In this document: positions 51,645 through 64,000 of the stretch, piece by piece | Layout of the letters: every line of letters begins with the position of its first letter | Position numbering within the stretch: position 1 is the stretch's first letter | NCBI RefSeq assembly: GCF_016026235.1 | Contig: NZ_CP065613.1 | Length of the DNA: 64,000 nucleotides | Origin: Escherichia coli | GTDB lineage: Bacteria; Pseudomonadota; Gammaproteobacteria; Enterobacterales; Enterobacteriaceae | Reading direction: 5' to 3' (one strand) | Notes under the pieces: generated by a model | What the model was told of the DNA's origin: nothing | What the model saw: the letters and a program-made list of their open reading frames with translations, nothing else | Databases searched by the model: none | Translations under genes and position numbers: made by a program

Positions 51645-52555
51645 GCCTCTCTGACAGCTCCTCCGGGAGCTGTTTTTACATGCTCGCTAAGGAAATCGAT
51701 AAAAGCCCGGATGCGCGTACTTACCGCACGGTCGCTGTAATAGACTGCACTGAATGGCATTTCCACTGGCAACACTTTATCTGCCATTAACTCCACCAAT
51801 TCTCCGCGAGCGATTTCTCTGTCGATCATATAGTCGGACAAACACGCAATCCCGTTGCCACTCAGGCAAAGCTGTTTCAGTGTTTCCCCACTATTGGATG
51901 ACAAACCGTACTTCACCTCATGTAATTGTCCATCGCTACAGGCTATCGGCCAGGTATTGAGGGAAGCGGGTTCAGTGAATCCCAGGCAAACATGTTGCTT
52001 TAAATCGTCGATCGTTTCTGGCTTCCCGTAGCGGGAAATATAATTGGGGGAGGCGATAATTTTTCGATAACTGTTAAATAACGGCCTGGCACGTAAGCTG
52101 GAATCCGTTAACGTACCAGCGCGTATCGCGACATCCACTTTTCTTTCGATCAAATTAATAATCGTTTCGGAGGAGACTAGCGACAAAGTGACTTCCGGAT
52201 AGCGTTCACGGAAAGGCTTAATTAACGGCATCAGAAAGTGCAGCACCACTGGAGTTGCGGCATCGATCCGTAACAGTCCACGCGGTGTATTACGCGTCTC
52301 CATAATTTCTGATTCTGCCGCTGCCATCTCCTGCAAAATTGACTGTACGCGACGAAAATAACGCTCGCCTTCTTCCGTCAGGCTAAGTTGTCGCGTGGTC
52401 CGATTAAGCAGGCTAACGCCAAGTTTCATCTCCAGCTTTTTCACCGCCCGGCTTACCGCAGAGTTTGCTTGCCCTAATTGTTCCGCTGCCCGGCTAAAGC
52501 TGCCGCTTTCTACGACCGAAACAAAAATGGCGAGTTCTTCCGACGTGGCTTTCAT
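51641..52555 (-). CDS. yafC: LysR-family transcriptional regulator YafC
   Basis: 304-aa [67 protein letters not shown]... (LysR HTH). Confidence 0.85.
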
Positions 52556-52744
52556 TTTTGCTCCTGTTGCAAAATAGAAGAGATATTTTGAATTTATTTG
52601 TCATTAAACCATCAGGATGCGTGATATGTCATCCGATTTAATGTTCTCAATAATGAGCAAAATTCTGACCGGTGTAAGCACTTGCTTACATAACAATATA
52701 CAATTGCTCGTTGAAAGAGTGAGCTAAAATCCCTATAACAGTAG

Positions 52745-53596
<852 letters not shown>

Positions 53597-53673
53597 GGTA
53601 TGTCAGGTCTGCCACAGGGCAGACCAACGTATGGCGCTGCCCTTTTATACTCAAACAACAAAAGGACAGCGTA

Positions 53674-54444
53674 ATGACAACACAATCCCACCATGACCAC
53701 GTAGAAAAGCAGTTTAGCTCTCAAGCCAGCGAATATCTGACCAGTACCGTACATGCATCCGGACGAGATTTACAGCGCCTGGCGGTGCGTCTGGCTGATT
53801 ATCCTGATGCAAGTGTACTTGATATGGGCTGCGGAGCAGGGCATGCCAGCTTTGTCGCTGCGCAAAACGTGAGCACGGTGGTGGCGTATGACTTATCTGC
53901 CCATATGCTGGATGTCGTGGCACAAGCTGCCGAAGCCCGGCAACTGAAAAATATCACCACCCGCCAGGGATATGCCGAAAGTCTGCCATTTGCCGATAAC
54001 GCATTTGATATTGTTATCAGCCGTTATTCTGCCCATCACTGGCATGATGTTGGTGCAGCACTGCGTGAAGTGAACCGGATATTGAAACCTGGCGGTAGGC
54101 TGATTGTGATGGACGTAATGTCTCCGGGCCACCCAGTGCGCGACATCTGGTTACAGACGGTAGAAGCATTACGCGATACCTCTCACGTACGAAACTACGC
54201 CAGCGGTGAGTGGTTGAGGTTAATCAATGAAGCCAATCTGATAGTTGATAATTTAATTACAGATAAGTTACCGCTGGAATTTTCTTCATGGGTCGCGAGA
54301 ATGCGTACGCCAGAAGCGTTAGTAGACGCTATTCGCATTTACCAACAGAGCGCATCGACAGAGGTGAGAACGTATTTTGCCTTGCAGAATGATGGCTCTT
54401 TCACCAGTGATATCATCATGGTAGATGCACATAAAGCGGCATAA
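53674..54444 (+). CDS. yafE: SAM-dependent methyltransferase YafE
   Basis: 256-aa ORF with class I methyltransferase motif VLDMGCGAGH; position after yafD. Confidence 0.8.
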   Translation: MTTQSHHDHVEKQFSSQASEYLTSTVHASGRDLQRLAVRLADYPDASVLDMGCGAGHASFVAAQNVSTVVAYDLSAHMLDVVAQAAEARQLKNITTRQGYAESLPFADNAFDIVISRYSAHHWHDVGAALREVNRILKPGGRLIVMDVMSPGHPVRDIWLQTVEALRDTSHVRNYASGEWLRLINEANLIVDNLITDKLPLEFSSWVARMRTPEALVDAIRIYQQSASTEVRTYFALQNDGSFTSDIIMVDAHKAA

Positions 54445-54446
54445 AT

Positions 54447-54480
54447 AAAAAAGGCACCGGGGGAATCGGTGCCTTTTTAT
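54447..54480. terminator. bidirectional terminator between convergent yafE and mltD
   Basis: AAAAAA-GGCACCG-GGGGAAT-CGGTGCC-TTTTTAT. Confidence 0.6.
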
Positions 54481-54491
54481 TATCTGGTTTG

Positions 54492-55850
54492 TCAGGAATC
54501 TGGCATGTTGTTGTTTTTCACAAACAACGTCAGCTTATCGCCTGGTTGCAGATTCGCAGTGTCGCTGTTCCAGCGCATCACATCTTTGATGTTCACGCCG
54601 TGGCGTTTAGCAATGCTTGAAAGCGAATCGCCTTTGCGCACACGATACGTAATGCTATCGCTGTTGTTTGCCAGTCGCTGTGCGCTACTGCCTGCACCAA
54701 TCGTCAAACTTTGGCCTGGCTTCAGCTTAGATCCGCGCAGTTTGTTCCACTGCTGCAAATCTTTGGTGCTTACGCCGAGACGTGAAGCGATACTTGAAAG
54801 CGTGTCGCCAGAGCGTACGGTGTAAACACGGCTGTTAAGCGGCGTATTGTCGGCAACCAGCGTCGACTGTACAGCAGCAATTTCGCCTGAAGCCAGAGAT
54901 TCACGCAGTTGATCTGCATGCTTCTTTGGCACCATCACGTATTGCGGACCACTTGCGCCCAGCGTGGAGCCTTTCACGCCAGCGTTGAATGTCTTCAGCT
55001 TGCTGACGGAAATCCCCGCCATATCTGCAACCTTCGCCATTTCAACCGGGCTGCTCAGGTGCACACGCGCCAGAGCACGGCTTTCATCGGTCGTTGGCAG
55101 ACGTACGCCATAACGCTTGCTGTTTTTGAGAATATCACTCAATGCCAGCATTTTAGGCACGTACTGCTTCGTTTCCTGCGGCAACGGTAACGACCAGAAG
55201 TCCGTGGATTTCCCACGCGCTTTGTTCGTTTTAATTGCCTTCATGACCCGACCTTCGCCGCTGTTATAAGCCGCTACGGTCAGAAGCCAGTCGCCGTCAA
55301 ACATTTTGTTCAGACGCTGCATCATGTTCAGCGCGGCAGTTGTTGAAGCAACAACATCGCGACGCGCGTCATAATTGCGGGTCTGTTTCAAACCATAATT
55401 GCGCCCCGTGCTCGGAATGATCTGCCAGATGCCTGCGGCATTGGCGCCAGACGTTGCGTGAGGATCAAAAGCGCTCTCCACTATGGGTAGTAGTACCAGT
55501 TCCATAGGCATGTTACGTTTTTTAACTTGCCCGGCTATCCAGTACATATACGGCTCTGCCCGTAAAGTTACATCGTGGAGATAGCTCTTATTGCGTAAAT
55601 ATTTCTGTTTCTGTTCGCGAATCCGGTCATTTTCCGGAATTCCCATCTTTAGCTCGTCGCCAATGAAAGCCCACAAGTCACCATCTGGCGCGATAGACGT
55701 CCCATCGTCCATCCATCGTGCCTGACTTGTAAACTTTGCTGCTTCCCCTTGACCAGCTGCAGAAAGGCTCTGTGCGTGCTGTTGAACGTTGCCGGTACTC
55801 TGGCAACCCACGAGCAGGACAGAGGCGAGTAATATCGCTTTTGCCTTCAT
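54492..55850 (-). CDS. mltD: membrane-bound lytic murein transglycosylase D
   Basis: 452-aa ORF MKAKAILLASVLLVGCQSTGN... (lipobox); transglycosylase SLT domain and two C-terminal LysM repeats. Confidence 0.9.
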   Translation of the reverse strand: MKAKAILLASVLLVGCQSTGNVQQHAQSLSAAGQGEAAKFTSQARWMDDGTSIAPDGDLWAFIGDELKMGIPENDRIREQKQKYLRNKSYLHDVTLRAEPYMYWIAGQVKKRNMPMELVLLPIVESAFDPHATSGANAAGIWQIIPSTGRNYGLKQTRNYDARRDVVASTTAALNMMQRLNKMFDGDWLLTVAAYNSGEGRVMKAIKTNKARGKSTDFWSLPLPQETKQYVPKMLALSDILKNSKRYGVRLPTTDESRALARVHLSSPVEMAKVADMAGISVSKLKTFNAGVKGSTLGASGPQYVMVPKKHADQLRESLASGEIAAVQSTLVADNTPLNSRVYTVRSGDTLSSIASRLGVSTKDLQQWNKLRGSKLKPGQSLTIGAGSSAQRLANNSDSITYRVRKGDSLSSIAKRHGVNIKDVMRWNSDTANLQPGDKLTLFVKNNNMPDS

Positions 55851-55921
55851 GTGTGTGTCAATAGTTGCTTAAAAGACGACCGATCATAACGGCGAACGGA
55901 GCCGATGACAAGAAAGTTTTA

Positions 55922-56680
<759 letters not shown>

Positions 56681-56710
56681 TTACCTCTCAGTGTGAAACG
56701 GAAGGTTGTG

Positions 56711-57433
56711 ATGAAACCGGCAAGAGTCCCTCAAACTGTCGTGGCTCCTGATTGCTGGGGCGATTTGCCCTGGGGAGAGCTTTATCGCAAGGCGCTGGAG
56801 CGCCAGCTCAACCCGTGGTTCACTAAAATGTATGGTTTTCATCTGCTTAAGATTGGCAATTTAAGCGCAGAAATCAATTGCGAAGCGTGCGCGGTTTCTC
56901 ATCAAGTGAATGTTTCTGCGCAAGGAATGCCCGTCCAGGTGCAGGCGGATCCACTTCATCTTCCTTTTGCCGATAAATCCGTTGATGTTTGTCTACTGGC
57001 ACATACATTGCCGTGGTGCACCGATCCGCATCGTTTATTGCGTGAAGCCGATCGGGTATTGATTGATGATGGCTGGCTGGTGATTAGTGGCTTCAATCCC
57101 ATTAGTTTAATGGGATTACGCAAACTTGTGCCGGTATTGCGAAAAACCTCGCCCTATAACAGCCGGATGTTTACTCTGATGCGGCAACTGGACTGGCTCT
57201 CTTTGTTGAATTTTGAAGTGCTACACGCCAGCCGTTTCCACGTTCTCCCGTGGAATAAACATGGTGGAAAACTATTGAGCGCGCATATTCCTGCGCTTGG
57301 TTGCTTACAACTTATCGTTGCCCGGAAACGGACTATTCCTTTAACGCTCAACCCGATGAAACAGAGCAAAAACAAACCGCGAATTCGCCAGGCGGTCGGC
57401 GCCACCCGGCAATTTCGTAAACCACAGGCTTAA
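56711..57433 (+). CDS. yafS: SAM-dependent methyltransferase-like protein YafS
   Basis: ORF-track frame 56693..57433 trimmed to ATG at 56711 ([31 protein letters not shown]...), 240 aa; start uncertain. Confidence 0.75.
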
Positions 57434-57897
57434 ACTTCGACTTGGTAGCCCGTATCTTCCAGTGTGGGATTCATTGCCGCGGCACGAGCCAGTTCATCGC
57501 AACGTTCGTTTTCTGGATGACCGGCATGGCCTTTTACCCATTCCCATTTGATTTGATGCTGCCCCAGCGCAGCATCAAGACGTTGCCAGAGATCGACATT
57601 TTTTACTGGTTTTTTGTCTGCGGTTTTCCAGCCACGTTTTTTCCAGTTATGGATCCACTGGGTGATACCCTGGCGGACATACTGGCTGTCGGTACTCAAA
57701 ATGACTTCGCAATGTTCTTTTAACGCCTCCAGCGCGACAATAGCGGCCATCAACTCCATGCGGTTGTTGGTGGTGCGGGTGTAGCCAGCGCTAAAAGTTT
57801 TCTCGCGTCCGCGATAGCGTAAAATAGCGCCATAACCCCCAGGTCCGGGATTGCCCAGACACGAACCATCGGTGAAAATTTCTACCTGTTTAAGCAT
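57430..57897 (-). CDS. rnhA: ribonuclease HI
   Basis: ORF-track frame 57430..58008 trimmed to ATG giving 155 aa ([74 protein letters not shown]...). Confidence 0.93.
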
Positions 57898-57961
57898 CTC
57901 TGGTAGACTTCCTGTAATTGAATCGAACTGTAAAACGACAAGTCTGACATAAATGACCGCT

Positions 57962-58693
57962 ATGAGCACTGCAATTACACGCCAGATCGTTCTCGATACC
58001 GAAACCACCGGTATGAACCAGATTGGTGCGCACTATGAAGGCCACAAGATCATTGAGATTGGTGCCGTTGAAGTGGTGAACCGTCGCCTGACGGGCAATA
58101 ACTTCCATGTTTATCTCAAACCCGATCGGCTGGTGGATCCGGAAGCCTTTGGCGTACATGGTATTGCCGATGAATTTTTGCTCGATAAGCCCACGTTTGC
58201 CGAAGTAGCCGATGAGTTCATGGACTATATCCGCGGCGCGGAGTTGGTGATCCATAACGCAGCGTTCGATATCGGCTTTATGGACTACGAGTTCTCGTTG
58301 CTTAAGCGCGATATTCCGAAGACCAATACCTTCTGTAAGGTCACCGATAGCCTTGCGGTGGCGAGGAAAATGTTTCCTGGTAAGCGCAACAGCCTCGATG
58401 CGTTATGTGCCCGCTACGAAATAGATAACAGTAAACGAACGCTACACGGGGCATTACTCGATGCCCAGATCCTTGCGGAAGTTTATCTGGCGATGACCGG
58501 TGGTCAAACGTCGATGGCTTTTGCGATGGAAGGAGAGACACAACAGCAACAAGGTGAAGCAACAATTCAGCGCATTGTACGTCAGGCAAGTAAGTTACGC
58601 GTTGTTTTTGCGACAGATGAAGAGCTTGCAGCACATGAAGCCCGTCTTGATCTGGTGCAGAAGAAAGGCGGAAGCTGCCTCTGGCGAGCATAA
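57962..58693 (+). CDS. dnaQ: DNA polymerase III epsilon subunit (3'-5' proofreading exonuclease)
   Basis: ORF-track frame 57953..58693 trimmed to ATG at 57962 ([39 protein letters not shown]...), 243 aa. Confidence 0.93.
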
Positions 58694-58768
58694 ATACCTG
58701 TGAAAGGCGCTAAAAATAGCGACTTGGGCGATTTTTGCAGCAAACGATTCAAAAGATGAGAAAAACCA

Positions 58769-58797
58769 TTGACGACGGGTGAGGCAATCCGTAATAT
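58769..58797 (+). promoter_or_regulatory. candidate aspV promoter (-35 TTGACG, 17-bp spacer, -10 TAATAT, GC-rich discriminator)
   Basis: TTGACG at 58769..58774 and TAATAT at 58792..58797, about 28 bp upstream of the tRNA 5' end. Confidence 0.5.
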
Positions 58798-58825
58798 TCG
58801 CCTCGTTCCCAACGGAACACAACGC

Positions 58826-58902
58826 GGAGCGGTAGTTCAGTCGGTTAGAATACCTGCCTGTCACGCAGGGGGTCGCGGGTTCGAGTCCCGTCCGTTCCGC
58901 CA
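58826..58902 (+). tRNA. aspV: tRNA-Asp (GTC)
   Basis: 77-nt sequence identical to the aspU copy at 50602..50678; lies directly after dnaQ. Confidence 0.95.
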
Positions 58903-58932
58903 AATTCACCTCATGAAAATGAGGTTCAGAGA

Positions 58933-58962
58933 ACCGCAAGATTTTTAATTTTGCGGTTTTTT
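58933..58962 (+). terminator. rho-independent terminator after aspV
   Basis: ACCGCAA-loop-TTGCGGT followed by TTTTTT; preceded by a 7-bp GAAA tetraloop hairpin (ACCTCAT-GAAA-ATGAGGT, 58907..58924). Confidence 0.6.
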
Positions 58963-59260
58963 GCATTTAAATCCCGCTATTTCTTCGGTCTATGATTTTG
59001 TTATGCTGTAAATGTGTTAATCACATATGGTAGACCATATCATTAATATTTAATCATACTATCGAATCATTCAATTTAAATATATTTGCATGTTATGATT
59101 TTCATTTTTCTATTGATTTAATGAATTTATATTTGCTGTTATTTTTGTTTGTTCTGATTCAAGTGGAGTATATAATTAAAAATCGTTAGCTAAACATTAC
59201 CATGATTATGACAGGCGAGGGAGTGTCCGATTATGAATTTAAGAAGGGTTTGTTGTATAT

Positions 59261-59845
59261 GTGTATTATTCTCGCTGCTTGCAGGATGTGCCTCTTAATT
59301 CTCCCGTTATACTTGTTCAGTCTGGCAGTCGCGCACCGGAAACCATTATGCAGGAGGAGATGAGAAAATATTATACAGTTGCCACATTTTCTGGCATTCC
59401 TGACAGGCAAAAACCTGTAACTTGTAATAAAGACAAAAACAAAGATGAAAGTCTGGATGTTGTAGATGCCGAAAATATGAACTGGATGCAGGCATTACGT
59501 TTTGTTGCGGCAAAAGGCCATCAGAAAGCGATTATTGTTTTCCAGGATACGTTGCAGACAGGAAAATATGACTCTGGATTGAAATCAATAGTTTGGTCAG
59601 ATTATAAAAATCAAAAATTGACTGACACGATGTCACTGCGTTATTTGGTTCGATTCACGCTGGTGGATGTGGCTACAGGTGAGTGGGCTACCTGGTCGCC
59701 TGTGAATTATGAATCGAAAGTGATTTTTCCGCAGATAGGGAATAAAAATTCTGACAGCCTTGATGTGGCAGAACAGCAGATTTCACAACTTAAGCAGAAA
59801 ACGTACGCAGCAGTGGTTAAAGATCTGGTGAATCGCTATCAGTAG
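59261..59845 (+). CDS. yafT: YafT-like protein body ORF; lipoprotein signal peptide lies upstream in a different frame
   Basis: 194-codon ORF (...[55 protein letters not shown]...); upstream ATG at 59233 encodes [21 protein letters not shown] then TAA at 59296 in a different frame. Internal ATGs at 59348 and 59360, the latter just after AGGAGG. Confidence 0.5.
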
Positions 59846-60186
59846 TAAGGTTTTATACCAGACGTTTTAATGGTACTTAGCAAGAAAGAGCATTTTCTTT
59901 TCTATTTATACTCTGGTTCAAGTCTGCTAATTAATTTTACATATATATTTTTTTAGAAGTAGTAAAAAACTTTACTAAAGTTATTTATTGTTCTCTCAAC
60001 ATATAAGCTGTAGTTCGAGTTTTCGGTTGAACTGTCAAAAATACATCATACACATCTATAAAACAGCAGGTACGGTTAATTAAGAATTTTTATTCGTGAT
60101 TAACCGTACTTTATCATTTTATTTTATAATGTTAAATTGCCTTTTTAAAATATAACAATAATGCAGATGAAAAACTCCCAGGTAAC

Positions 60187-60666
60187 TTAGAAAATCCGTT
60201 CACTCCAAAGGCTGTACGCACTGGTTCCGGCGACGCTGTGCTCCCAGTTAATGCTCTCATAGGTAAATGACACAGACTCTTCCGGCTGTCCTGGGCTGTC
60301 GTTAATGGTATGGGGAACGGTAAGGCCGATGTTTGAGATCCGGGCGTTAGTCAGTTTCACCTTGTAGTACGGTTCATTAACACCAAAGCGGTTGGTGCGA
60401 TAGAATACAAAATCACAGGTCAGACATTCATTCTCCGAAATGGCCTTGCCCAGCAGGGGGGAAGATTTGTCCACCGGTTTCGTGATGGTCAGCTCCTGGT
60501 GGTTGACATTCTGCGCCCGGCTCAGACCATGGGACAGTGACGTCACCATGATCTGATCCTGATGTGCAATCTGGGCTTTGTTACCGATGGACGGCATTGA
60601 CGAGCATCCGGATGAAATCAGCCCCTGAAGTTCTCCGTTCAGTGTCAGATAGACGGGATTTGCCAT
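60187..60666 (-). CDS. hcp: type VI secretion tube protein, Hcp family
   Basis: ORF-track frame 60187..61053 trimmed to ATG (complement 60664..60666) preceded by AAGGAGAATAAC; 159 aa MANPVYLTLNGELQGLISSGCSSMPSIGNKAQIAHQDQIMVTSLSHGL...YKVKLTNARISNIG...FTYESINWEHSVAGTSAYSLWSERIF, Hcp-like length and N/C-terminal pattern. Confidence 0.65.
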   Translation of the reverse strand: MANPVYLTLNGELQGLISSGCSSMPSIGNKAQIAHQDQIMVTSLSHGLSRAQNVNHQELTITKPVDKSSPLLGKAISENECLTCDFVFYRTNRFGVNEPYYKVKLTNARISNIGLTVPHTINDSPGQPEESVSFTYESINWEHSVAGTSAYSLWSERIF

Positions 60667-60683
60667 TGTTATTCTCCTTAAAC

Positions 60684-62042
60684 TCAATGGGTCGGAGGGA
60701 CTGGCACGGTGCTGTTGTCCGTTGCCATATCCTGTCCGGTATTTTTCAGCAACAGCCAGCGGCTTAACAGCCCATCCAGCCGTTGGTTGATCTCTTTTGC
60801 TAGCGCCTGTGTGTCCTGATTCTGCGTGCGGGTCTCCTGGTACTGCGTCAGCAGGTACTCCAGTGGAGTTTCCTGATTCAGTAACCGTTCGGCCTGCCAG
60901 GTCACCGTTTTGATATACGAGAGGGTGAAACCCTGTTTCTCCGTCTCCTTTTTCATCATCAGATCCGCAAAATCCCGCAAATTCTGCCGCGCCTGTTGCC
61001 AGCCCTTCATCTGCGGACTGGCTTGCGCCCGGTTTCTCAGCGTGGTGCTCCACATCCGGCTGGCTTCCTGCTGTTGCAGGCTTTCCGGCCAGAGGGTGTC
61101 TGCGGTGCGCATCATCTGCATTCCGGTTTCCAGCGGCTGTAGCGGTGGGGTATCCAGAAGCTGTTGCAGGTACTGTTCATATTCTTTCAGTACCGGTGAT
61201 GCCAGCCAGACGGTGGCGGCTCCCTGTGCGGTATCCCTGACCTGCGTAAGCTGCCGCTGCATCGGGTACGCCTGCCACCACCAGAGTGCAGCGGCGATAA
61301 CGGCAGTACAGGCGGCACCGGCAACAAAACCTTTTACAGTGCTGCCCTGTCTAACGTTGTCGGCGTTATTTGCCACACCGCGCACCTCCACCCGCATTTC
61401 CGGCAGGTCGGGCAGGGGAGGCACGGCTTCCGCTGTGGTGGAAGCCGTGCTTTCCGGCGCATAGACCAGCGTCCGGACCGTGGTCTGTGCCGCCGTATCA
61501 GTACGGTTTCCGGGCTGCGGTTCAAACCGCTTGCGTGTGTTCTGCACAAAATAAAGCAGGTTTTCCACGCGCGGCTGGCGCTTCAGTTCCACCTGCTGGA
61601 GTTTGTCACAGATAAGCTGTAAAGCCCGTTCCGTGCGGTAGAGCAACGGCAGATCATTTTCGGAAAAGGACACCTGCTGGCGCAGGATATTCCCGGTGCG
61701 GGTATTGAACCAGTCCAGCATCTCAGTCCGCGCCGGGCCACCCTGCGGCCAGAATTTATCCCATTCGTGGTTGATCATCGCTGCCAGCAGTTCCGCGCCT
61801 TCGCAGAACCCTGCCAGTCCCTGATTACGGGTACGCGCCAGTGTATAGTAGGTGGCGGTATGCAAATCCACCCCGTTGGCCTTAAAAATCGACAGCGCCA
61901 GCGATTCCACCAGTTTCCAGTTCAGCTCCGGCTGTGACGGGTGATTAGCCTTGTTAATTTCTTCGCGGATGGCGCTGAACTCCGGCAGGGCGCGCGGATC
62001 GCTGCCGGTAACGATAGTTTGAGTCAGTGCGTTGTTGTTCAT
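60684..62042 (-). CDS. T6SS-associated ImpA-N-domain protein (TssA-family, VasL/TagA-like) with central transmembrane segment
   Basis: ORF-track frame 60684..62183 trimmed to ATG at 62042 (MNNNALTQTIVTGSDPRALPEFSAIREEINKANHPSQPELNWKLVESLALSIFKANGVDLHTATYYTLARTRNQGLAGFCEGAELLAAMINHEWDKFWP...); hydrophobic stretch GFVAGAACTAVIAAALWWW; 10 bp after the tssM stop, 17 bp before hcp. Confidence 0.55.
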   Translation of the reverse strand: MNNNALTQTIVTGSDPRALPEFSAIREEINKANHPSQPELNWKLVESLALSIFKANGVDLHTATYYTLARTRNQGLAGFCEGAELLAAMINHEWDKFWPQGGPARTEMLDWFNTRTGNILRQQVSFSENDLPLLYRTERALQLICDKLQQVELKRQPRVENLLYFVQNTRKRFEPQPGNRTDTAAQTTVRTLVYAPESTASTTAEAVPPLPDLPEMRVEVRGVANNADNVRQGSTVKGFVAGAACTAVIAAALWWWQAYPMQRQLTQVRDTAQGAATVWLASPVLKEYEQYLQQLLDTPPLQPLETGMQMMRTADTLWPESLQQQEASRMWSTTLRNRAQASPQMKGWQQARQNLRDFADLMMKKETEKQGFTLSYIKTVTWQAERLLNQETPLEYLLTQYQETRTQNQDTQALAKEINQRLDGLLSRWLLLKNTGQDMATDNSTVPVPPTH

Positions 62043-62052
62043 CACTATCCCC

Positions 62053-64000
62053 TTAATACAATGTATCCGGTAAACGGAACTGGCTGAACAGACCGCCGGT
62101 GAACGGGTTATCTTCGGTATCCACATGCACCCGGTAAACCATCGCGCCGCCGTCCACGTTAAAGCGCACGTTAAAGGTGTCACTGGTTACGTTGGTCAAC
62201 TGGCCCGCGCCGAACAGGCGGAACTGCGCCCACGGTCCACTGAACGCGATACTGCGCGGTGCTCCGCCGCTGGTGCCAATCAGCGTCAGCTTGCTTTCAT
62301 TGCCTTCACGCATGTTGTTCGGCCAGACCAGATGGGCGGTATAGTTGCGTCCCTGGCTGTAGTCCACTAACTGGCCGTCCAGGTTAAGTACGCTGCGCCG
62401 CTTATTGCCGGAAAGCGATACGGTTTCCACGGCAAACTGTGCGCCCAGTCCGTTCTGCTGGCTAAAGAAGATGTCGCGGATTTTCTGTGCGGTATCCAGT
62501 TGTTGCCGGATATCTTCACGGATCAGCACTCTGCCGTCGTCGCCAAAGGTCAGATCGTTTTCCAGGAACAGTCGCAGGTTGTCCCTGTAGAACGAGTCCA
62601 GAATGCCATCCGGTTTAAAGAAGCGCTCAAACGCATCCAGTGAGGCATCCTGTGGGGCGCGTGGATTAAACGGATAGTTACCGGCAAGCTGTTCGTTGAA
62701 GGGTTTCACCACATTGTCGCGCCAGTCCACTTCCATGTAATGAACGGCTTCCACCATCACTACATGCCAGGCCTGATCCGCCAGCTTGCCCACCCAGCGG
62801 TTAAGAGGCGCAGGCAGGGTTTTTGCCATCTGACGGGTGGCGAAGATTGGATCGCTGCTGTTTTGATCCAGCCGTAGCTGTACTGCTTTCAGCGCCGATT
62901 TCCCAGACACTGGCGAGTTCTGAATCGCCAGCAGGTAACGGTGCAGCTCGGTCAGTTGCTGGTACACGGCCTGTAGCGTACTCGCCTTGTCCTTTTGCTC
63001 CTCCAGTGCGCTATTTTCCGGCGCGAGCTCATGTCCCAGCCGGGATAACAGGCGGTAATCCATCTCATTTATCGCCGCTTCCCTCGCCTTATCATCCAGT
63101 TTGCCGGAGAGCGTCAGCGCGTGTGTATTATCGCGCAGCGCCGTCAGCGCACGCTGGAATGGCTGATCGCCGCTGATAATCTGCTCCAGCGCGTCGGTCA
63201 GCACCGGCATGGCCTCATAGTCACGGACGTTGAGATTATCCATTCCGGCACGCCATGTAGCGGTATAGTCACTGAGGTACTGTTCAGTGATATGGCGCTG
63301 GATCTCTTCACGGTCGGCCTCGCTGTAGGCGACGCTTTGCGTCAGGTTCAGCACCCACGAATCCAGCGCGGTCAACTCAACGAGACCGTCGTGTTGTTTG
63401 ATAAAATAGCTTTGCAGGCCATAGCGGGTGAGAAACTGCGGGATCACCAGTTTTTCATCATTACCGGCGACGAACACGTTGTCGAAGGTGGGACCAACCT
63501 GGTCGCGCAAATTCAAATCGGCGGGCAACACGCTTAATGCTTTGGTGCGCAGGGTCTGGTAGACACGCTGGTATATCGGCAGTTTGCTCAGTTCATGTTG
63601 CGCATTAATGACCGCTTTATCATAGGGTGTCCAGCGGCTGATGGCGTCGCTGTCGCCGCTCTGGCGCTGCGCGTGCCAGTCGGTGTGTTCCAGCGCATAG
63701 TCCAGATGTGCCATCAGTTGCGCCTGAATATCACGCTGGCCGTGAAATTCATTGCTCCAGCGCCGCGCCATGTACTGTTTTACCGCCTCGTTGTTGCGCC
63801 CACTTTTGTCTTCCATCATGCGCACTACGCGCAGCACGGCGAGTTTTTCTTCACTCTCAGGCGGGGCATTGTTCAGATCCCGGATCAGGCCGTTCATTAA
63901 CGAGGGGAGATAACGCTGCTCAAGAAGCTGAATGTAGGTTTGTTCCACATATGACCCTACGCGGACGCCCTGGTACAATCCCATATCCGCCAGAAAACCG
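62053..64000 (-). CDS. tssM: type VI secretion membrane protein TssM (IcmF-like), C-terminal part; gene continues beyond window end
   Basis: More than 640 codons open on the minus strand from the window edge to the stop at 62053; size, the downstream ImpA-like and Hcp genes, and recalled IcmF C-terminal character support TssM; not verified by search. Confidence 0.55.
   Translation of the reverse strand, partial: GFLADMGLYQGVRVGSYVEQTYIQLLEQRYLPSLMNGLIRDLNNAPPESEEKLAVLRVVRMMEDKSGRNNEAVKQYMARRWSNEFHGQRDIQAQLMAHLDYALEHTDWHAQRQSGDSDAISRWTPYDKAVINAQHELSKLPIYQRVYQTLRTKALSVLPADLNLRDQVGPTFDNVFVAGNDEKLVIPQFLTRYGLQSYFIKQHDGLVELTALDSWVLNLTQSVAYSEADREEIQRHITEQYLSDYTATWRAGMDNLNVRDYEAMPVLTDALEQIISGDQPFQRALTALRDNTHALTLSGKLDDKAREAAINEMDYRLLSRLGHELAPENSALEEQKDKASTLQAVYQQLTELHRYLLAIQNSPVSGKSALKAVQLRLDQNSSDPIFATRQMAKTLPAPLNRWVGKLADQAWHVVMVEAVHYMEVDWRDNVVKPFNEQLAGNYPFNPRAPQDASLDAFERFFKPDGILDSFYRDNLRLFLENDLTFGDDGRVLIREDIRQQLDTAQKIRDIFFSQQNGLGAQFAVETVSLSGNKRRSVLNLDGQLVDYSQGRNYTAHLVWPNNMREGNESKLTLIGTSGGAPRSIAFSGPWAQFRLFGAGQLTNVTSDTFNVRFNVDGGAMVYRVHVDTEDNPFTGGLFSQFRLPDTLY

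What the first reader, a model, noticed from the sequence alone, without database searches (positions are those of the whole stretch)
60684..62042. TssA-family protein with ImpA-like N-terminus, single central TM segment and Gln-rich C-terminal half
The N-terminal 100 residues resemble the ImpA-N domain (PEFSAIREEINK...ELNWKLVESLALSIF...YYTLARTRNQGLAGFCEGAELLAAMINHEWDKFWP), followed by a hydrophobic helix (GFVAGAACTAVIAAALWWW) and a periplasmic Q/T-rich region. This is the membrane-anchored TssA variant (VasL/TagA-like) rather than a canonical cytoplasmic TssA, which has implications for how this apparatus caps or anchors its sheath.
Basis: inference. Interest (0 to 1): 0.3.

Follow-up and report, generated by a model that had tools for sequence, protein, structure and literature searches.

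The report
TagA-type T6SS sheath membrane anchor
This gene encodes an ordinary, already described accessory protein of the bacterial type VI secretion "crossbow" (TagA/VasL), which sits in the inner membrane and catches the far end of the firing sheath; the one open point is which side of the membrane its C-terminal domain faces.

Summary
Window 60684-62042 (minus strand) is an intact 452-aa gene, 10 nt after tssM and 17 nt before hcp, in the E. coli type VI secretion island next to the tRNA gene aspV.

- **Domains:** it has an ImpA_N domain (aa 12-113, E 1e-20), a roughly 60-aa disordered linker, one uncharged hydrophobic helix (aa 238-256) and a VasL domain (aa 288-432, E 7.8e-25).
- **Not canonical TssA:** it scores 88 bits against a cut-off of 230 and has no VasJ domain. 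A separate long TssA lies two genes upstream.
- **Family:** it aligns over its full length with the experimentally studied EAEC TagA (29% identity, E 2e-55). This puts it in the TagA/TsmA "class B" family, which stops sheath growth and holds the distal end at the membrane.
- **Prevalence:** RefSeq already names it "VasL domain-containing protein", and 762 of 5426 complete E. coli genomes carry it.
- **Topology:** across 51 homologues the helix is conserved. Basic residues favour its N-terminal flank in 41 of 51 sequences. The C-terminal part is almost free of cysteine (0.03% against 0.93%). Published descriptions call TagA peripheral or cytosolic, so this point is unresolved.

The finding is a known family member and of low interest.

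The parts
60684..62042 (-). tagA/vasL coding sequence (452 aa plus stop), a class B TssA-like protein (TagA/TsmA)
   Evidence: ORF and translation. Pfam ImpA_N and VasL. RefSeq calls it 'VasL domain-containing protein', with 100% identity to WP_038341277.1 in FDAARGOS_943.
62048..62054 (-). Shine-Dalgarno-like AAGGGGA, 5 nt before the ATG and overlapping the tssM stop codon. This is an operon-type junction.
   Evidence: Read directly from the sequence.
61704..62009 (-). ImpA_N domain (aa 12-113), part of a confidently folded all-helical N-terminal domain (aa 10-175, nt 61518-62015)
   Evidence: Pfam E 1e-20. AF2 pLDDT is 93-98 per 10-residue block over aa 11-170 and 80 for aa 171-180. Foldseek hit to the B. 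cenocepacia TssA N-terminal domain 6hs5, E 6.5e-4. A profile of the family hits the PDB sequences 6rju and 6hs5.
61338..61517 (-). Pro/Thr/Ala/Glu-rich linker (aa 176-235), predicted disordered
   Evidence: AF2 pLDDT below 50 over aa 186-235 with no secondary structure. Composition. Poorly conserved in alignment A1.
61275..61331 (-). Single hydrophobic helix GFVAGAACTAVIAAALWWW (aa 238-256), the predicted transmembrane anchor
   Evidence: The best 19-residue Kyte-Doolittle window scores 1.72, with nothing else close. The segment is conserved in position in 51 of 51 homologues, with mean Kyte-Doolittle 1.82, hydrophobic moment 0.07, and a charged residue in 1 of 51. G242 is at least 90% conserved. 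AF2 gives one continuous helix over aa 236-269.
60747..61181 (-). VasL domain (aa 288-432), a Gln-rich all-helical domain. The folded region spans about aa 272-441.
60187..60666 (-). hcp (tssD) tube gene, starting 17 nt downstream of tagA
   Evidence: Pfam T6SS_HCP E 1.9e-24 and TIGR03344 E 9e-61.
62053..64000 (-). 3' part of tssM (icmF). The gene runs off the end of the window.
   Evidence: TIGR03348 E 3.9e-160, covering model positions 514-1168. The full gene is 1158 aa in L001.
58826..58902 (+). tRNA-Asp (aspV), the chromosomal landmark that borders the T6SS island
   Evidence: ARAGORN and the annotation of L001.

Best explanation
The gene encodes the TagA (also called TsmA or VasL) accessory subunit of the E. 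coli aspV-linked type VI secretion system. This system is phylogenetic group 1 and has the V. cholerae-like gene order.

**Shown here**
- The protein has a cytoplasm-type ImpA_N helical domain, a roughly 60-residue flexible tether, one membrane helix and an all-helical VasL domain.
- It is co-encoded with tssM, hcp and a long (VasJ-type) TssA.
- It is a full-length homologue of EAEC TagA.

**Inferred from work on EAEC and V. cholerae TagA**
- The protein waits in the inner membrane.
- This stops polymerisation and clamps the distal end, so the sheath stays extended and straight until it fires.
- Loss of TagA should give over-long, bent or detached sheaths and reduced, but not abolished, killing.

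**My own inference on topology**
The helix is a true N-in/C-out transmembrane anchor. That places the Cys-free VasL domain in the periplasm, where it could fix the anchor laterally or oligomerise it.
For: - **Domain architecture:**
- **Not a canonical TssA:**, and no VasJ domain.
- **Cluster context:** hcp, vasL, tssM, tssA, vasI, tssH, tssL, tssK, tssJ, tagH, tssG, tssF, tssE, tssC, tssB next to aspV.
- **Cognate TssA:** ImpA_N + VasJ.
- **Homology to EAEC TagA:** 29% identity over 450 aa, E 2e-55, with identical architecture.
- **Family size:** 838 cluster representatives at E<=1e-3. Full-length homologues of about 430-480 aa occur across Enterobacterales and Orbales.
- **Structure:** two confident helical domains joined by a disordered linker, with a continuous helix over aa 236-269.
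- **Function of the family:** PMC6745524 (class B; TagA in V. cholerae localises to the membrane, its deletion gives long bent sheaths, its overexpression blocks assembly, and it forms about a hexamer). PMC6450956 (EAEC TagA recruits TssA to the envelope). PMC7896307 and PMC10433429 (groups 1 and 2 pair a long TssA with TagA; the EHEC cluster is group 1).
- **Topology:** K+R counts are higher in the N-terminal flank of the helix in 41 of 51 homologues and lower in 1 (Wilcoxon p 2e-8). Hydrophobic moment is 0.07. Cys is 0.93% in the N-terminal part and 0.029% in the C-terminal part. The periplasmic domain of TssM in the same cluster is also Cys-free.
Against: - No experiment exists on this particular protein.
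- Identity to the characterised EAEC TagA is only 29%. V. cholerae TagA could not be compared directly because its sequence was not retrievable.
- In the nearest sequenced relative (FDAARGOS_943, 99.9% identical DNA) tssC is split by IS21. The apparatus may therefore be inactive in this lineage. The window ends inside tssM, so this cannot be checked here.
- A C-terminal mNeonGreen fusion of V. cholerae TagA is fluorescent and active (PMC6745524). This fits a cytoplasmic C-terminus, though it does not exclude a periplasmic one.
- The homologue statistics are not corrected for shared ancestry.
Confidence: 0.85

Rival explanations
1. Same family and same stop-and-hold role, but the hydrophobic helix is only a monotopic or peripheral membrane anchor. 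Both the ImpA_N and VasL domains would then be cytoplasmic, as published descriptions of EAEC TagA imply.
For: [quoted passage not shown] PMC6450956 calls it 'membrane-associated', in contrast to 'transmembrane' TssM. TagA-mNeonGreen with the tag at the C-terminus is functional in V. cholerae (PMC6745524). My position-independent insertion-energy sum for the E. coli segment is slightly unfavourable (+1.45).
Against: - The segment is 19-23 uncharged residues with almost no amphipathicity (moment 0.07) in 50 of 51 homologues. That is unlike an in-plane helix.
- No conserved mid-helix break is present that would allow a re-entrant hairpin.
- Basic residues strongly favour the N-terminal flank.
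- Cys is 32-fold depleted in the C-terminal part.
- EAEC TagA itself shows the same features.
Confidence: 0.4
2. It is the canonical TssA cap or chaperone of this T6SS, which primes and rides the growing sheath end.
For: It shares the ImpA_N domain. NCBIfam TssA models give weak N-terminal hits. A structural match exists to the TssA N-terminal domain 6hs5.
Against: The scores fall far below the TssA cut-offs, at 88 bits against 230 and 39 against 161. There is no VasJ or other TssA C-terminal ring domain. A bona fide long TssA is encoded two genes upstream.
Confidence: 0.02
3. The gene is an intact but functionless remnant of a decaying T6SS island.
For: In the 99.9%-identical strain FDAARGOS_943, tssC is interrupted by IS21. 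The neighbouring yafT-like gene is frameshifted in the window. Databases hold many deletion chimeras that fuse fragments of other T6SS genes to the 3' half of tagA.
Against: The ORF is full length with all family-conserved residues. It is 94-100% conserved in its own allele group, and 737 of 762 E. coli genomes that carry it have at least 80% of it. An IS insertion in one relative would be recent and says nothing about what the protein does when the system is intact.
Confidence: 0.25

Closest known systems
EAEC 042 TagA (EC042_4550; Santin et al. 2018, Nat Microbiol 3:1304; L002 34071-35438)
   Same: - Same length class (455 and 452 aa).
- Same order of ImpA_N, linker, single hydrophobic helix and VasL.
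- Colinear alignment over 450 residues at 29% identity, E 2e-55.
- Same Cys-free, Gln-rich C-terminal part.
- Both partner a long TssA.
   Different: - Only 29% identical.
- EAEC tagA lies several genes outside the Sci-1 core cluster, which has a different gene order. This gene sits directly between tssM and hcp in a V. cholerae-like cluster.
- The EAEC protein matches the VasL model more strongly (E 1e-37 against 7.8e-25).
Vibrio cholerae TagA / VasL (VCA0121; class B 'TsmA', Schneider et al. 2019, PMC6745524)
   Same: It has the same position directly downstream of tssM (vasK). From my own knowledge of the V. cholerae cluster, the gene order vipA ... vasI-vasJ-vasK-vasL is also the same. PMC10433429 places the EHEC aspV cluster in group 1, and PMC7896307 places the V. 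cholerae T6SS in group 1. The architecture is ImpA_N plus a hydrophobic domain. The Pfam VasL family is named after this protein.
   Different: No Vibrio protein was found among the 20 of the 150 best cluster representatives whose source organisms were looked up, so it is probably more distant than about 25% identity. The E. coli cluster has no vasH regulator gene.
Long TssA (TsaC, class A; e.g. EAEC TssA 6rju, or the cluster's own TssA at L001 24926-26368)
   Same: Shared ImpA_N N-terminal helical domain.
   Different: TssA has a C-terminal VasJ ring-forming domain and no membrane helix. This protein has a membrane helix plus VasL, and it fails the TssA model thresholds.

Membership tests
TagA / TsmA (class B TssA-like proteins: ImpA_N + hydrophobic region + VasL) | N-terminal ImpA_N domain (PF06812) | tested here: met
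   aa 12-113, E 1e-20, 74 bits against a cut-off of 26.9. Fold match to 6hs5.
TagA / TsmA (class B TssA-like proteins: ImpA_N + hydrophobic region + VasL) | Central hydrophobic or transmembrane region | tested here: met
   aa 238-256; the best 19-residue Kyte-Doolittle window scores 1.72. Conserved in 51 of 51 homologues.
TagA / TsmA (class B TssA-like proteins: ImpA_N + hydrophobic region + VasL) | C-terminal VasL domain (PF12486) | tested here: met
   aa 288-432, E 7.8e-25, 88 bits against a cut-off of 27.3.
TagA / TsmA (class B TssA-like proteins: ImpA_N + hydrophobic region + VasL) | Encoded with a T6SS that has a separate long (VasJ-type) TssA | tested here: met
   Cluster map from the 100%-identical locus. 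The TssA has ImpA_N plus VasJ, E 3e-73.
TagA / TsmA (class B TssA-like proteins: ImpA_N + hydrophobic region + VasL) | Full-length sequence homology to an experimentally characterised TagA | tested here: met
   EAEC 042 TagA: 29% identity over 450 aa, E 2e-55. V. cholerae VCA0121 was not compared.
TagA / TsmA (class B TssA-like proteins: ImpA_N + hydrophobic region + VasL) | Membrane localisation, binding to TssA, and capture of the distal sheath end (stop-and-hold phenotype) | not testable with these tools
   Known only for the EAEC and V. cholerae proteins (PMC6745524, PMC6450956, PMC7545191).
Canonical TssA (NCBIfam TIGR03362 / TIGR03363) | Whole-protein score above the curated equivalog cut-off | tested here: not met
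   88.2 bits against 230.1, and 39.2 against 160.85. Only the N-terminal part of the protein matches (aa 8-213 for TIGR03362, aa 13-126 for TIGR03363).
Canonical TssA (NCBIfam TIGR03362 / TIGR03363) | C-terminal oligomerisation domain (VasJ PF16989, or the short-TssA C-terminal domain) | tested here: not met
   No VasJ hit at E<=0.1. The neighbouring tssA has one.

The most novel reading that the evidence does not exclude
TagA/VasL proteins, including the studied EAEC TagA, are true bitopic inner-membrane proteins whose VasL domain lies in the periplasm. They would not be cytosolic proteins stuck to the membrane.

The sheath anchor would then have a periplasmic foot. Such a foot could brace against the cell wall or the TssJLM complex and set where and how firmly the distal sheath end is held.
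Probability: 0.5. Interest if true: 0.4.

Novelty: already known. Interest (0 to 1): 0.15.

Why it matters
For genome annotation it matters only a little. The gene should be labelled tagA (tsmA/vasL), the sheath membrane anchor, and not tssA. Its presence together with a long TssA marks this island as a "slow, anchored" type of T6SS.

The sequence-based topology argument is the one point that could feed an experiment. [quoted passage not shown] The function of the so-far uncharacterised VasL domain should then be sought outside the cytoplasm.

Tried and rejected
- **Canonical TssA:** rejected on NCBIfam thresholds and the absence of VasJ.
- **Santin et al. 2018:** I tried to read it for the original topology experiments, but the paper is not held.
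- **V. cholerae VCA0121:** I looked for it among cluster representatives through two name look-ups. Only Enterobacterales and Orbales turned up. I ran no further search on this.
- **Internal terminator-like site at 61686-61673:** a 5-bp stem, and the number of such sites is no more than shuffles give. Disregarded.
- **Plus-strand ORFs overlapping the gene (60910-61464 and others):** shadow ORFs, not pursued.

Full report
**1. Observation**

The finding's coordinates are exactly one coding sequence on the minus strand. The ATG is at 62042 and the TGA stop at 60686-60684, giving 452 aa. The plus-strand translation of the same interval is full of stops.

The start lies 10 nt after the tssM stop (62053). 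It is preceded by AAGGGGA, which overlaps that stop codon. hcp starts 17 nt after the gene's own stop, behind AAGGAG. The three genes are therefore packed as in an operon.

- The ImpA-like stretch lies in aa 19-145.
- GFVAGAACTAVIAAALWWW is aa 238-256.
- The part after it has 14.3% Gln and 11.2% Thr, against 5.9% Gln before the helix.

**2. What it is**

Pfam gives two hits above threshold. ImpA_N covers aa 12-113 (E 1e-20) and VasL (PF12486) covers aa 288-432 (E 7.8e-25).

NCBI's TssA equivalog models match only the N-terminus and fall far below their cut-offs, at 88 bits against 230 and 39 against 161. The protein is therefore not a canonical TssA.

The DNA is 100% identical to a gene of E. 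coli FDAARGOS_943 that RefSeq labels "VasL domain-containing protein". Of 5426 complete E. coli genomes, 762 carry a recognisable copy, and 737 of those have at least 80% of it.

The annotated neighbourhood in that strain is: aspV tRNA-Asp, a lipoprotein gene, hcp, this gene, tssM, tssA, vasI, tssH, tssL, tssK, tssJ, tagH, tssG, tssF, tssE, tssC, tssB. The tssA two genes upstream encodes a long TssA with ImpA_N plus VasJ (E 3e-73). The window itself ends inside tssM.

The EHEC cluster at aspV is described as homologous to the V. cholerae vas genes (PMC5363993). It is placed in phylogenetic group 1 (PMC10433429). Groups 1 and 2 typically pair a long TssA with a TagA anchor (PMC7896307).

**3. 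Relation to characterised proteins**

I located the experimentally studied EAEC 042 TagA as an intact 455-aa ORF downstream of the Sci-1 cluster (L002 34071-35438). It has the same ImpA_N and VasL architecture. It aligns colinearly with the window protein over 450 residues at 29% identity, E 2e-55.

An exhaustive HMMER search of 1.8 billion cluster representatives found 838 relatives at E<=1e-3. They include dozens of full-length proteins of about 430-480 aa at 24-41% identity. These come from Pantoea, Providencia, Moellerella, Xenorhabdus, Pragia, Gilliamella and others.

I could not retrieve V. cholerae VCA0121, so orthology with it rests on gene position and cluster type only.

**4. Structure**

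AlphaFold2 was run on a 51-sequence alignment and gave mean pLDDT 84.9. The model has four parts:
- A confident all-helical N-terminal domain (aa 10-175).
- A linker without structure (pLDDT below 50 over aa 186-235).
- One continuous helix over aa 236-269 that contains the hydrophobic segment.
- A helical bundle running to aa 441.

The only significant structural match is the N-terminal domain of B. cenocepacia TssA (6hs5, E 6.5e-4). Sequence profiles hit only 6rju and 6hs5, again through the N-terminus.

**5. Membrane helix and topology**

In all 51 aligned homologues a hydrophobic stretch sits at the same place, although its sequence varies. Its features are:
- Mean Kyte-Doolittle score 1.82 and mean Eisenberg hydrophobicity 0.70.
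- Hydrophobic moment only 0.07.
- A charged residue in 1 of 51 sequences.
- A glycine at least 90% conserved (G242) in an F-x-A-G motif at its start.

These are the features of a membrane-spanning helix, not of an in-plane amphipathic one.

Lys+Arg counts in the 15 residues before the helix exceed those in the 15 residues after it in 41 of 51 sequences. The reverse holds in 1 (Wilcoxon p 2e-8). By the positive-inside rule this predicts N-in/C-out.

Independently, cysteine frequency differs sharply between regions (Fisher p 4e-26):

| Region | Cys frequency |
|---|---|
| N-terminal part | 0.93% |
| Hydrophobic helix | 2.9% |
| C-terminal part | 0.029% |

As an internal control, the periplasmic domain of TssM from the same cluster has no Cys in about 700 residues. 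Most cytoplasmic subunits have 0.5-2%. EAEC TagA shows the same pattern.

These statistics are not corrected for shared ancestry, and they are predictions only.

[quoted passage not shown] The functional C-terminal mNeonGreen fusion of V. cholerae TagA (PMC6745524) does not settle it. To my knowledge mNeonGreen can fluoresce in the periplasm. I leave the topology open at roughly even odds.

**6. Mechanism**

This is inferred from the family. Published evidence on the two studied TagA proteins is as follows.

*V. cholerae*
- TagA localises to the membrane.
- It appears at the point where the sheath's distal end touches the far side of the cell.
- It forms about a hexamer.
- Its deletion gives longer, bent and sometimes detached sheaths with fewer contractions.
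- Its overproduction blocks assembly by holding TssA at the membrane (PMC6745524).

*EAEC*
- TagA recruits TssA to the envelope.
- Its loss makes the distal end slide (PMC6450956).

For the window protein the most likely mechanism is therefore this. The ImpA_N domain sits on a roughly 60-residue flexible tether from a membrane helix. It captures the TssA-capped sheath end, stops polymerisation and holds the sheath extended until firing.

The domain anatomy and the co-encoded long TssA are shown here. The interactions and the phenotype are inferred.

**7. Novelty and score**

This is a correctly recognised member of a described family, already named as such in RefSeq. A specialist would not be surprised. 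The only lead with some value is the consistent sequence signal that the uncharacterised VasL domain faces the periplasm.

Interest is 0.15. Novelty is "already known".

**8. Side observations**

- The neighbouring yafT-like lipoprotein gene is frameshifted in the window by a 173-bp deletion between short repeats.
- The closest sequenced strain has tssC split by IS21, and an IS1 that the window lacks.
- RefSeq splits the intact EAEC tagA into pseudogene fragments.
- Public data contain many deletion chimeras that join fragments of other T6SS genes to the 3' half of tagA.

Noticed in passing
window 59233-59845 (+): The yafT-like lipoprotein gene ([19 protein letters not shown]...) between aspV and hcp is broken here. 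Relative to FDAARGOS_943 (L001 18378-19163, 261 aa) the window lacks 173 bp flanked by the short direct repeat TGTGCCTCT. This shifts the frame and stops translation after 21 codons. The remaining 194-codon ORF (59261-59845) is the out-of-frame 3' part.
   Followed up: yes
L001 37090-40709 (FDAARGOS_943; beyond the window's right end): In the strain whose DNA is 99.9% identical to window 52000-64000, tssC is split by an IS21 element (istA/istB). The T6SS that this tagA serves is probably inactive there. The window stops inside tssM, so whether the same insertion is present in the window's genome is unknown. That strain also has an IS1A between yafC and yafD which the window lacks (window about 52549/52540).
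   Followed up: partly
L002 34071-35438 (E. coli 042, NC_017626.1 4884070-4885437): RefSeq/PGAP annotates the experimentally characterised EAEC TagA as three 'incomplete' pseudogene pieces (ImpA_N, a spurious POTRA fragment, VasL). The region is in fact one uninterrupted 455-codon ORF with both Pfam domains. This looks like an annotation artefact.
   Followed up: yes
Proteins P0026, P0126-P0137, P0147, P0160, P0166; locus L003 2252-3751: Many database proteins are chimeras. An N-terminal fragment of TssF, TssA (VasJ), TssK, TssC, TssM or TagH is fused in frame to the membrane helix plus VasL part (or all) of a TagA allele 65-75% identical to this one. L003 shows that one of them is a real deletion remnant (tssB, tssC'-'tagA, hcp, two ORFs, yafT). 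The aspV T6SS island seems to decay repeatedly by internal deletions whose right end falls in or just before tagA.
   Followed up: partly
Proteins P0001, P0002, P0003, P0013 (611-618 aa): A few E. coli entries carry ImpA_N, VasL and Hcp domains in a single protein of 611-618 aa, which is about the length of TagA plus the downstream Hcp. These may be real frameshift variants or sequencing or assembly errors. I did not examine their DNA or alignments.
   Followed up: no
window 60684-62042 compared with E. coli genomes: Allelic divergence of this gene within E. coli is large. Identity bands are >=99% in 3 genomes, 95-99% in 227, 90-95% in 346 and 60-80% in 186. The most populous E. coli protein cluster (P0031, 3152 members) is only 74% identical, similar to the Salmonella, Citrobacter and Enterobacter versions (about 75-80%). 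This suggests exchange of the island between genera.
   Followed up: no
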